64,000 nt of DNA, from positions 19,251 through 83,250 of IMG/VR virus record IMGVR_UViG_3300022562_000333. One strand, given 5' to 3'. The notes beneath the pieces were generated by a model. It was given only the letters and a program-made list of their open reading frames with translations, was not told where the DNA came from and ran no database searches. Within the stretch, counting starts at the first letter, position 1. Each line of letters opens with the position of its first letter. Made by a program: the position numbers and the translations under genes. This DNA comes from a virus. Of this stretch, positions 60,707-60,866 are shown piece after piece.

Positions 60707-60866
60707 GCGACGACAAGAGGTGCGAAGACAACTTTTAGGCGCTCTACCTCTGAGCTATCCCGCTACCAAACGTCGGCTTTCGACGGCGCTTGGTGGCGGG
60801 AACGAGGACTCGAACCTCGTGACCTCCCGCGTATGAAGCGATGTAGTCCTCAACTGCATTCGTCGC
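60707..60866 (-). ncRNA. YrlA/Y-RNA-like RNA no. 6 (permuted tRNA retaining CAT loop and ACCA)
   Basis: GCGACGAATG..GGACTACA-TCGC-TTCATAC-GCG..TCCCGCC-ACCA-linker-GCGGGATAGCTCAG..CTTGTCGTCGC. Confidence 0.85.

What the first reader, a model, noticed from the sequence alone, without database searches (positions are those of the whole stretch)
60707..60866. Permuted tRNA cargo retains a CAT anticodon loop and an internal ACCA
Seen: the order is scaffold, CGC-TTCATAC-GCG (anticodon loop CAT), V-loop, T-arm, acceptor 3' strand TCCCGCC-ACCA, a ~25-nt linker with a GAAA hairpin, 5' strand AGCGGGA, D-arm, scaffold. Copy 1 similarly keeps a CT-ACG-AA loop and copy 3 a TT-GGA-AA loop. Inference: RNase P or 3' trimming of the linker could expose a chargeable end, or rejoining could give a mature tRNA, as for permuted tRNA genes of some algae and archaea. 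The copies appear to have captured different tRNA species independently.
Basis: partly seen in the sequence, partly recalled or inferred. Interest (0 to 1): 0.78.

Follow-up and report, generated by a model that had tools for sequence, protein, structure and literature searches.

The report
Phage Y RNA mimicking whole tRNA
This 163-base gene in a huge phage's tRNA cluster is a Y RNA, the partner RNA of the Ro60 protein, whose middle is a back-to-front but otherwise complete tRNA with an anticodon loop and a built-in CCA end; it is more likely cut open like a tRNA precursor than turned into a working tRNA.

Summary
On the minus strand, 60866-60704 reads: terminal stem, CGC-UUCAUAC-GCG hairpin, AGGUC, T arm, UCCCGCC-ACCA, 26-nt linker, AGCGGGA, D arm, terminal stem.

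It is not a new kind of gene. Rfam's YrlA model (RF02553) aligns end to end at 39.3 bits, E 1e-5, below the curated 69 bits. The 5' stem carries the published Ro60-binding motif GNCGAAN0-1G. Published work already calls YrlA RNAs circularly permuted tRNA mimics, and M. smegmatis YrlA is cut by RNase P and given CCA.

What is unusual is that published YrlAs are described as lacking an anticodon loop and a free CCA end. Here the Y stem branches from a 2+3-bp anticodon stem. ARAGORN calls the computed unpermuted sequence tRNA-Met(CAU).

The design recurs:
- 13 of 13 relatives unpermute to full tRNAs.
- 14 of 14 distinct loops have U33, with 13 different triplets.
- NCCA follows the acceptor strand in 6 of 35 such RNAs (P 1.6e-5).

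Rejoining into a mature tRNA is unsupported. Independent capture of tRNAs is not shown for this copy. No expression data exist, and no Ro60 gene lies in this 17%-complete record.

This scan has noted related tRNA/Y RNA chimeras on other DNA. I rate this a new variant of a known kind.

The parts
60704..60866 (-). Whole Y RNA-like gene (YrlA type). It abuts tRNA-Trp (60867-60940) at its 5' end and tRNA-Pro(ggg) (60629-60703) at its 3' end.
   Evidence: Rfam RF02553 aligns full length (model 1-114) at 39.3 bits, E 1.2e-5 over 20 kb and 1.1e-7 locally; the gathering score is 69. tRNA coordinates are.
60857..60864 (-). GACGAAUG, which matches the published Ro60/Rsr-binding motif GNCGAAN0-1G.
   Evidence: Sequence. 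The motif is defined in Chen 2014, section 6.
60860..60866 (-). Terminal stem, 5' strand GCGACGA. It pairs with 60713-60707.
   Evidence: MFE and constrained folds.
60707..60713 (-). Terminal stem, 3' strand UCGUCGC, inside the conserved CUUGUCG motif.
60828..60840 (-). Anticodon-arm mimic CGC-UUCAUAC-GCG. CAU is at 60835-60833, with U33 and A37 in place.
   Evidence: It is a 15-nt insertion relative to the YrlA model. ARAGORN reads it as the anticodon arm of the unpermuted sequence.
60826..60827 (-). GG (tRNA positions 42-43). It is proposed to pair with CC at 60739-60738 (positions 27-28), which completes a 2+3-bp anticodon stem with the Y stem branching at 28/29.
   Evidence: This is the ARAGORN cloverleaf of the rejoined sequence. 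GG and CC are present in all 13 class members that were unpermuted. The MFE prefers AGGU:GCCU instead.
60821..60825 (-). Five-nt variable loop AGGUC. C48 can pair with G15 of the D loop (Levitt pair).
   Evidence: Sequence.
60802..60820 (-). T arm ACGAGG-UUCGAGU-CCUCGU, with a 6-bp stem and a canonical T loop.
60795..60801 (-). Acceptor 3' strand UCCCGCC.
   Evidence: Relatives in two other metagenomes change 66 and 67 together with 7 and 6, and 72 becomes U.
60791..60794 (-). Encoded ACCA (discriminator A73 plus CCA).
   Evidence: NCCA sits at this position in 6 of 35 related RNAs, binomial P 1.6e-5.
60765..60790 (-). 26-nt linker that closes the acceptor stem (hairpin CGUCG-AAAGC-CGACG; UUGGU pairs with ACCAA). 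The predicted RNase P cut lies between U60765 and A60764.
   Evidence: The fold is. The cut site is inferred from the M. smegmatis precedent.
60758..60764 (-). Acceptor 5' strand AGCGGGA (A1 faces C72).
60740..60757 (-). U8-A9, D arm GCUC-AGAGGUA-GAGC, and G26.
60714..60739 (-). CC (positions 27-28), then the 3' strand of the Y stem. GUCUUC at 60729-60724 pairs with GAGGAC at 60851-60846.

Best explanation
The element is a phage-encoded Y RNA of the YrlA type. A terminal stem carries the Ro60-binding motif, and it holds a circularly permuted tRNA-like domain. Unlike the described YrlAs, this copy keeps every tRNA part:
- a 7-bp acceptor stem followed by an encoded ACCA;
- D arm, 5-nt variable loop and T arm;
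- an anticodon stem-loop (CAU), built from 2 bp shared with the junction plus a 3-bp hairpin, so that the Y stem branches off between positions 28 and 29.

Shown here: the architecture, its match to the YrlA model, its recurrence in phages and next to Ro60 genes in bacteria, and the enrichment of NCCA and of anticodon-loop hallmarks.

Inferred:
1. It is transcribed within the tRNA array and released by the enzymes that trim the flanking tRNA-Trp and tRNA-Pro.
2. RNase P then cuts 5' of A60764 in the linker.
3. Exonucleases trim the 5' piece back to ...ACCA.
4. The two pieces stay held together by the Y stem on a Ro60-like protein.

The result would be a tRNA-shaped ribonucleoprotein with a free acceptor end, not a decoding tRNA. 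I put YrlA identity at about 0.85 and linker processing at about 0.5.
For: - The YrlA covariance model aligns over its whole length (1-114) at 39.3 bits, E 1.2e-5. It shows just two insertions, the 15-nt hairpin and a 31-nt rather than 2-nt acceptor loop.
- GACGAAUG fits GNCGAAN0-1G (Chen 2014 section 6).
- The window holds further YrlA-type copies, including a canonical one at 56460-56590 (53.5 bits, E 9.3e-10).
- ARAGORN calls the unpermuted sequence tRNA-Met(cat) and finds nothing in the native order.
- 13 of 13 class members unpermute to full tRNAs, against 5 of 13 hairpin-less controls.
- The same CGC-N7-GCG-GG design occurs in a Methyloglobulus MAG at 73.1 and 69.3 bits, above Rfam's cut-off, on the same contigs and strand as a TROVE gene.
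- Ro60-like proteins (TROVE plus vWA, about 560 aa) are found in 4 of 5 records searched, and in the query's own record G004. Their best solved relative is the Thermus phage TROVE protein 9L5Y/9KOP.
- NCCA follows the acceptor strand in 6 of 35 RNAs, P 1.6e-5.
- U is at position -1 in 18 of 35, P 7e-4.
- Contigs from two other metagenomes change acceptor pairs 7:66 (A-U to G-C) and 6:67 (G-C to U.G) on both sides.
- No sigma-70-like promoter or terminator lies on the minus strand in 59000-64000.
Against: - The Rfam score (39.3) is below the curated 69 bits, and that model also rings weakly on tandem tRNAs (47631-47740; control genomes).
- No TROVE/Ro60 gene lies in the 83-kb record. The record is only about 17% complete. 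In relatives the Ro60-like gene lies about 12 to 45 kb from most Y RNAs, not within 4 kb; in G004 one partial match lies about 1.6 kb from it.
- No RNA data exist for this DNA.
- The ACCA is paired with the leader, and the acceptor/T stack is 13 bp rather than 12. Both could hinder RNase P (my reading of the sequence; RNase P determinants recalled).
- The cofold of the two predicted pieces does not return the cloverleaf.
- The 1:72 mismatch is not kept in the two related contigs, where 72 is U.
Confidence: 0.7

Rival explanations
1. A closed, unprocessed YrlA. The linker and ACCA would only lengthen the acceptor helix, as in YrlAs with long acceptor stems, and the RNA would work as one 163-nt chain.
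For: - The MFE fold buries ACCAA in a helix with UUGGU.
- Chen 2014 reports YrlAs with a longer acceptor stem in cyanobacteria (passage seen).
- The 13-bp acceptor/T stack is non-canonical.
Against: - NCCA exactly after a 7-nt acceptor strand occurs in 6 of 35 RNAs, against about 0.5 expected.
- U at -1 is enriched.
- The four well-formed long linkers (30-40 nt) all start with A73 and have 1:72 unpaired, which marks the end of the stem.
- M. smegmatis YrlA, with a 7-bp stem, is cleaved.
Confidence: 0.3
2. A true permuted tRNA gene. The linker and the scaffold would be removed and the ends rejoined, giving a working tRNA-Met or tRNA-Ile(CAU), as in Cyanidioschyzon or Thermofilum.
For: - The order is 3' half, linker, 5' half.
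- The unpermuted sequence scores as tRNA-Met(cat).
- No tRNA-Met gene is in the window.
- RtcB ligase genes are found in the two related records G001 and G003.
Against: - The scaffold is the Ro60-binding Y module, shared with six other non-decoding copies.
- The Y stem would have to be cut from inside the anticodon stem.
- No tRNA splicing endonuclease was found in 0 of 5 related records.
- Relatives carry ordinary tRNA-Met genes in the same arrays.
- Class members show triplets such as AUU and AAC that normal tRNA sets rarely use (rarity recalled).
Confidence: 0.03
3. An evolutionary relic. A tandem duplicate of a tRNA gene would have been trapped between Y stem halves, with the ACCA and spacer left over and not used.
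For: - T arm, acceptor 3' strand, ACCA, spacer, acceptor 5' strand, D arm is exactly what the junction of two tandem tRNA genes looks like.
- Chen 2014 notes that dimeric tRNAs can score with their model.
- The best unmasked local matches of this copy are two tRNA-Met(cat) genes, at 35/40 and 37/46.
Against: - With the loop masked, Met ranks only 10th.
- The best global identities to the 505 unique tRNAs then held are 0.74-0.82, with mixed isotypes.
- The acceptor stem shows paired changes in related contigs.
- A second phage (G005) keeps the same design with ACCA but a different linker and stem sequences.
Confidence: 0.07

Closest known systems
YrlA (Y RNA-like A, Rfam RF02553), the Ro60/Rsr partner RNA of bacteria and mycobacteriophages (Chen 2014, PMC4201824; Wang 2018 preprint 10.1101/312249)
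   Same: - It has a terminal stem with GNCGAAN0-1G and a YUAY box.
- It has T arm, acceptor-like stem and D arm in permuted order, and the tRNA tertiary-pair nucleotides are present.
- Some members have a fourth stem-loop upstream of the T arm, which Chen calls 'V'.
- Phage members are known (22 bacteriophages in Chen 2014).
   Different: [quoted passage not shown] Here the extra stem-loop sits on the anticodon side of a 2-bp stem and of a normal 5-nt V loop, has a 7-nt loop with U33 and A37, and ACCA is encoded.
- The score is below Rfam's cut-off.
- It lies in a tRNA array, not beside a Ro60 gene.
Mycobacterium smegmatis YrlA (Chen 2014)
   Same: It has a seven-bp acceptor stem. It is cut by RNase P, and the 5' half ends in CCA after nibbling and CA addition. 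The two halves stay bound to Rsr.
   Different: There, CA is added after cleavage, whereas here ACCA is fully encoded. I could not see the mycobacterial sequence, so I cannot say whether it has an anticodon-like hairpin.
Thermus phage phiLo Ro60 with Yrl1/Yrl2 (PMC12135203)
   Same: These are phage-encoded Ro60 and Y RNA-like RNAs with the CGAA motif. The authors propose that they recruit host PNPase.
   Different: The passages I saw describe those RNAs as stem-bulge-stem Y RNAs and do not mention a tRNA-like domain (0 occurrences of 'tRNA-like' or 'anticodon').
Two-piece (circularly permuted) tmRNA of alphaproteobacteria and cyanobacteria (recalled; Rfam RF04321 is in the library)
   Same: The gene order is T arm, acceptor 3' strand, CCA, intervening segment, acceptor 5' strand. 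The intervening segment is removed, and the two pieces stay paired.
   Different: This locus has no tag reading frame or pseudoknots, and no RF04321 match.
Permuted and split tRNA genes of Cyanidioschyzon merolae and some archaea (recalled)
   Same: The 3' half lies upstream of the 5' half in one transcript.
   Different: Those mature through a bulge-helix-bulge cut and ligation into a contiguous decoding tRNA. Here no such endonuclease is found, and the flanks are a protein-binding Y module.

Membership tests
YrlA / bacterial Y RNA (RF02553) | A match to the curated covariance model at or above the gathering score (69 bits). | tested here: not met
   The score is 39.3 bits over the full model length, E 1.2e-5. 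The loss comes from the two insertions. Bacterial members of the same hairpin class reach 73.1 and 69.3 bits.
YrlA / bacterial Y RNA (RF02553) | A GNCGAAN0-1G motif near the 5' end, in a stem formed with the 3' end. | tested here: met
   GACGAAUG lies at 60864-60857. A 7-bp terminal stem pairs 60866-60860 with 60713-60707.
YrlA / bacterial Y RNA (RF02553) | Conserved T-like and D-like stem-loops with an acceptor-like stem between them (permuted tRNA domain). | tested here: met
   The model alignment and the parse show them. U8, A14, G15:C48, G18G19, G53:C61 and U54/A58 are all readable in the sequence.
YrlA / bacterial Y RNA (RF02553) | Encoded within 4 kb of a Ro60/TROVE gene on the same strand (Chen 2014 criterion). 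| tested here: not met
   No TROVE match lies in the 83-kb record. The record is about 17% complete, so absence from the phage is not shown. G002, G003 and G005 have full-length Ro60-like genes and G001 a partial match, as does the query's own record G004; they lie about 12 to 45 kb from most Y RNAs, though one partial G004 match is about 1.6 kb away.
YrlA / bacterial Y RNA (RF02553) | Bound by Ro60/Rsr. | not testable with these tools
   This needs EMSA or co-immunoprecipitation.
tRNA (RF00005) / decoding tRNA gene | A contiguous cloverleaf recognised by tRNA finders. | tested here: not met
   ARAGORN gives no call and RF00005 gives no match at 60704-60866. Only the computed unpermuted sequence is called tRNA-Met(cat).
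Permuted tRNA genes (algal/archaeal type) | The 3' half lies upstream of the 5' half, joined by an intervening sequence. | tested here: met
Permuted tRNA genes (algal/archaeal type) | Processing by the tRNA splicing endonuclease and ligation to a contiguous tRNA. | tested here: not met
   PF01974 was found in 0 of 5 records (own, G001, G002, G003, G005). The break point lies inside the anticodon stem, next to a Ro60-binding stem. The processing itself cannot be tested here.
Two-piece tmRNA (RF04321) | A permuted tRNA-like domain plus a tag reading frame and pseudoknots. | tested here: not met
   No RF04321 match lies at this locus at E up to 1. The window's ordinary tmRNA is at 45431-45783.

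The most novel reading that the evidence does not exclude
A subclass of Y RNAs, found in huge phages and beside Ro60 genes in bacteria, displays a real anticodon stem-loop with a freely varying triplet. In some members, including this one, it also has an encoded NCCA end that RNase P cleavage would free.

After processing, this RNA would be a two-piece, Ro60-tethered tRNA-Met/Ile look-alike that tRNA enzymes treat as a tRNA. It could be charged by MetRS or IleRS and bound by the phage's own EF-Tu, which is encoded 560 nt upstream. Alternatively, it could be offered as a decoy or sensor to host anticodon nucleases, with the phage RtcB seen in relatives resealing it. The triplet would then set which tRNA-directed enzyme or attack the Ro60 particle responds to.
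Probability: 0.12. Interest if true: 0.8.

Novelty: new variant of a known kind. Interest (0 to 1): 0.5.

Why it matters
Y RNAs and Ro60 are conserved from bacteria to humans, yet what the tRNA-like domain of bacterial Y RNAs is for remains open. The published structures lack the two parts that make a tRNA chargeable and codon-specific. A natural set of Y RNAs that keeps both parts, with U33 and R37 fixed and the triplet variable, gives direct handles for testing. One can ask whether Y RNAs are cut by RNase P, end in CCA, are aminoacylated or modified in the anticodon loop, or are targets of anticodon nucleases. It also bears on how Y RNAs arose from tRNAs, and on why huge phages place up to seven such RNAs inside their tRNA islands.

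Tried and rejected
- **Named phages.** A near search found nothing. A distant search matched only tRNA pieces, covering at most 3% of the query.
- **Expression.** No RNA holder was listed for this DNA. This says nothing either way.
- **Orthologues through EF-Tu synteny.** I fetched 26 loci. My regex found Y scaffolds in only 3 of those contigs, besides one likely chance match, and none like copy 6. YrlA model matches at E <= 1e-4 appeared in 5 of 16 of those records.
- **Exact 27-nt stretch of the linker region in IMG/VR.** It gave 0 matches.
- **Pattern ACTACA-N12-16-GGAGGTC-N4-GGTTCGA in IMG/VR.** It found only L025. The L025 copy has the CAU loop, a 6-bp T stem and ACCA, but no D arm, a poor terminal stem, and a 3' part like the window's copy at 60308-60430. 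I read it as a chimera or a decayed copy and did not count it as a full member.
- **Capture test.** With the 7-nt loop masked, the isotype implied by the triplet ranked anywhere from 1st to 21st, and Met ranked 10th for this copy. Some rows of that run took a shifted loop. No general match between body and triplet was found.
- **Hairpin finders.** The first version picked wrong hairpins (6 rows) and was dropped. The version shifted the loop by 2 nt wherever the V loop reads UGGUC, so the loop tallies I quote come from the fixed frame TCGC-N7-GCGG.
- **Two-piece cofold.** It did not give the cloverleaf. I do not count this for or against.
- **Dropped rows.** Of the 51 permuted-tRNA candidates, 16 lacked my strict 5' motif. 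Most have CAAAUG or AGAAU variants. L063 is an ordinary tRNA, and L079 lacks the scaffold motifs. All 16 were left out of the 35. Three of them (L083 and two in L137) also carry NCCA. Two L142 rows with 47-nt 'linkers' are mis-parses.
- **Literature.** Searches found no paper describing a YrlA with an anticodon loop or an encoded CCA. The library lacks most subscription journals.
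Full report
**Setting.** The window is bases 19251-83250 of an 83,250-base IMG/VR virus record that CheckV rates about 17% complete, so it is a fragment of a huge phage. The only run that holds all of the sampled words is a marine sediment metagenome, which may be the source of this DNA. From 45.4 to 63.9 kb the minus strand carries 36 tRNA genes and a tmRNA. Between them lie genes such as an EF-Tu at 61426-62685, OMP decarboxylase and a Dam methylase; 5 of the 10 ORFs scanned had no Pfam match. 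The finding lies exactly between tRNA-Trp (60867-60940) and tRNA-Pro(ggg) (60629-60703).

**Observation.**
- terminal stem strand GCGACGA;
- the box ...GGACUACAU;
- hairpin CGC-UUCAUAC-GCG;
- GG, then AGGUC;
- T arm;
- UCCCGCC-ACCA;
- a 26-nt linker;
- AGCGGGA, then UA;
- D arm, G, CC;
- the 3' scaffold, ending in UCGUCGC.

The RNA folds better than all 200 shuffles (z = -3.28). Enforcing the tRNA-like pairs costs only 3.1 kcal/mol relative to the MFE (-61.5 against -64.6). I add four details:
- ACCAA pairs with UUGGU at the far end of the linker, and the linker centre is a 5-bp hairpin.
- The T stem can form 6 bp.
- A1 faces C72.
- G40-G41 can pair with the CC that follows G26.

The last point means the 3-bp hairpin stacks on a 2-bp stem to give a normal 5-bp anticodon stem, with the scaffold leaving between positions 28 and 29. 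ARAGORN finds nothing in the native order. It calls the sequence joined by script at that junction tRNA-Met(cat). Copy 1's CUACGAA hairpin is real (46973-46959). Copy 3's UUGGAAA is a junction strand, not a hairpin loop.

**What it is.** At gathering thresholds Rfam reports only tRNAs and the tmRNA. At E-value thresholds the YrlA model (RF02553) aligns over its full length to 60704-60866 at 39.3 bits, E 1.2e-5, against a curated cut-off of 69. The differences amount to two insertions, the 15-nt hairpin and a 31-nt rather than 2-nt acceptor loop. A canonical copy with a UUCG-closed acceptor stem lies at 56460-56590 (53.5 bits). A short copy lies at 59425-59520 (29.8 bits). The match at 47631-47740 overlaps two tandem tRNA-Arg genes and is the false-positive type that Chen and co-workers warn about.

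The 5' strand reads GACGAAUG, which fits the motif GNCGAAN0-1G that Chen 2014 links to Ro60/Rsr binding (section 6 read in full). That paper and the Wang 2018 preprint (passages seen) establish four points:
- YrlA RNAs carry T, D and acceptor-like arms in permuted order.
- 22 bacteriophages have them.
- M. smegmatis YrlA, with a 7-bp acceptor stem, is cut by RNase P in vivo and in vitro, and its 5' half then ends in CCA.

[quoted passage not shown] In this RNA the extra hairpin sits 5' of the GG:CC pairs and of an ordinary 5-nt variable loop. That is the anticodon-arm position, not the variable-arm position.

I looked for the same frame (ACAU-CGC-N7-GCG-GG-NGGUC-T arm) elsewhere. It occurs in:
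- 7 stretches of JGI metagenome contigs;
- 2 IMG/VR contigs;
- 4 stretches of GTDB MAGs, namely Methyloglobulus (two contigs), an uncultured gammaproteobacterium and Sulfurovum.

In the Methyloglobulus MAG these RNAs score 73.1 and 69.3 bits, above Rfam's cut-off. They lie on the same contigs and strand as a TROVE gene, inside arrays of four YrlAs. They are therefore bona fide YrlAs.

Across the class I found 14 distinct loops. U33 is present in 14 of 14, a purine at 37 in 13 of 14, a pyrimidine at 32 in 12 of 14, and A or C at 38 in 14 of 14. The central triplet takes 13 different values. Control hairpins drawn from the same loci have U at that place in 27% and a purine in 52%. All 13 of 13 full members become complete tRNAs for ARAGORN when unpermuted by script, with the triplet as anticodon. 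Among hairpin-less controls joined at the same landmarks, 5 of 13 are called; one of these does have a hairpin that my finder missed. The samples were gathered by sequence patterns and are related to each other, so these numbers describe the class and are not independent trials.

**The ACCA.** My parser found 51 permuted-tRNA RNAs in all held DNA, and 35 have the strict 5' motif. In 6 of those 35 the seven-nt acceptor 3' strand is followed by NCCA, against about 0.5 expected (binomial P 1.6e-5). They are this copy (ACCA), a 192-kb phage G005 (ACCA), two adjacent copies in L021 (GCCA), L019 (UCCA) and L132 (GCCA). Three of the 16 rows I set aside for a variant motif also have it. The nucleotide before the acceptor 5' strand is U in 18 of 35 (P 7e-4).

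The G005 RNA (L134:2724-2895; YrlA model 40.9 bits) is the closest analogue. It has CGC-CUUAUAA-GCG, GG, UGGUC, T arm, a 7-nt acceptor strand, ACCA, a 35-nt unrelated linker with its own hairpin, C1 facing A72, UA, a D arm and A-CC. The four well-formed long linkers (30-40 nt) all begin with A73 and have 1:72 unpaired, against 1 of the shorter ones.

Contigs from a soil run and a freshwater run carry relatives of this very RNA at under 95% likeness. The changes seen there are:
- Both contigs change position 7 from A to G and position 6 from G to U.
- The contig that reaches the other strand changes 66 from U to C and 67 from C to G, which keeps both pairs.
- Both contigs have U at 72, which would pair with A1.

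Nine further differences were not displayed, so I cannot say whether CAU and ACCA are unchanged there.

**Partner protein and context.** No TROVE gene lies in the 83-kb record. Ro60-like proteins of about 560 aa (TROVE plus a vWA domain with a DVSGSM site) are encoded in 4 of the 5 records searched, one of them only a C-terminal piece, and in the query's own record G004. The one I tested matches the solved Thermus phage TROVE protein (9L5Y/9KOP, E 7.7e-12). All 5 of 5 related records have YrlA-model matches, none above the cut-off.

RtcB ligase genes are present in G001 and G003, 2 of the 5 records searched. G001 shares the tRNA-array order, and G003 has the EF-Tu closest to the window's, at 82% identity. 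This echoes the bacterial rsr-yrlBA-rtcBA operon described in the papers cited above. No tRNA splicing endonuclease was found in 0 of 5.

Three of the seven also end within 0-6 nt of the next tRNA. No sigma-70-type promoter or terminator lies on that strand in 59-64 kb. Release by the tRNA-processing enzymes is therefore the simplest reading, but it is an inference.

**Capture of different tRNAs.**
- For this copy, the best local matches among 505 unique tRNAs from the held phage DNA are two tRNA-Met(cat) genes, at 35/40 and 37/46.
- Global identities are only 0.74-0.82 with mixed isotypes.
- With the loop masked, Met ranks 10th against the 597 unique tRNAs then held. The resemblance therefore rests on the loop itself.
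- Copy 3's four best matches are all tRNA-Leu. L029, with a GAU loop, ranks Ile first. Some cargos do look isotype-specific.
- Within the CGC class, one constant frame carries 13 triplets. That fits divergence of the loop better than repeated capture.

**Mechanism and rivals.** Most likely (0.7 overall; identity about 0.85, processing about 0.5) this is a Ro60-partner RNA whose tRNA mimicry is complete. RNase P would cut before A60764, and exonucleases would trim back to ACCA at 60791. The two pieces would stay joined by the Y stem, as in M. smegmatis.

Several facts stand against this reading:
- The Rfam score is below the cut-off.
- No Ro60 gene is in the fragment.
- The ACCA is paired.
- The acceptor/T stack is 13 bp.
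- The cofold result is unhelpful.
- There are no RNA data.

The rivals are a closed form (0.3, which competes only with the processing step), a relic of a tandem tRNA duplication (0.07) and a true permuted tRNA gene (0.03).

**Novelty.** My searches found no paper that describes a YrlA with an anticodon loop or an encoded CCA. Earlier notes of this scan (unchecked by me) describe the reverse wiring on other DNA: whole tRNAs with a hairpin-closed Y module in the anticodon arm, next to phage Ro60 genes. The processed form proposed here would resemble those. I class this finding as a new variant of a known kind, with moderate interest.

Noticed in passing
window 59154-59246 (-), and upstream to about 59412: The tmRNA model matches weakly (31.5 bits, E 2e-9) over a 93-nt stretch with a GGGGGCUGG... 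5' end and a ...GGGUUCGACUCCCGCCAGCUCCAC 3' end. A second GGGGCUG start lies near 59412. This could be a minimal or second tmRNA-like RNA besides the real tmRNA at 45431-45783.
   Followed up: no
L060:9424-9610 and L061:5898-6114: The same Y scaffold (GAAUG ... A[CU]UACAU ... CUUGUCG with a paired terminal stem) encloses a 190-217-nt cargo with no T arm. The scaffold therefore also carries non-tRNA inserts in relatives that encode EF-Tu.
   Followed up: no
G001:C1:181803-183065 and G003:C1:217857-219116: The two related huge-phage records G001 and G003 encode full-length RtcB RNA ligases (290 and 298 bits). G003 also has a full Ro60-like gene and G001 a partial match. This is the same trio as the bacterial rsr-yrlBA-rtcBA operon, but dispersed.
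   Followed up: partly
G022 (Methyloglobulus MAG) C122:1443-2134 and C142:2668-3358: Two contigs each carry a TROVE gene followed on the same strand by an array of four YrlA genes. Seven of the eight score above Rfam's cut-off, and one in each array has the CUGUCAC anticodon-like hairpin.
   Followed up: partly
L134:845-917 (phage G005): ARAGORN calls a tRNA with anticodon CUA, labelled Pyl. It is an amber-suppressor-type tRNA in the 192-kb phage that also has the ACCA-bearing Y RNA.
   Followed up: no
window 60433-60526: A related soil-metagenome contig joins 60433 to 60526 with four other letters in between. It therefore lacks one tRNA-Gln gene of the pair and keeps the neighbouring Y RNA and tRNA-Pro genes.
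   Followed up: no
window 58904-59055 (-): Y copy 3 overlaps the first 144 bases of the mechanically listed 503-aa ORF 57536-59047. The cargo of this copy resembles tRNA-Leu, and it sits right after tRNA-Leu(cag).
   Followed up: partly
L025:7040-7290 region (G001): The CAU/ACCA Y RNA of the syntenic relative has no D arm. Its 3' part resembles the window's copy at 60308-60430, as if two neighbouring Y RNA genes had recombined with loss of the genes between them.
   Followed up: partly
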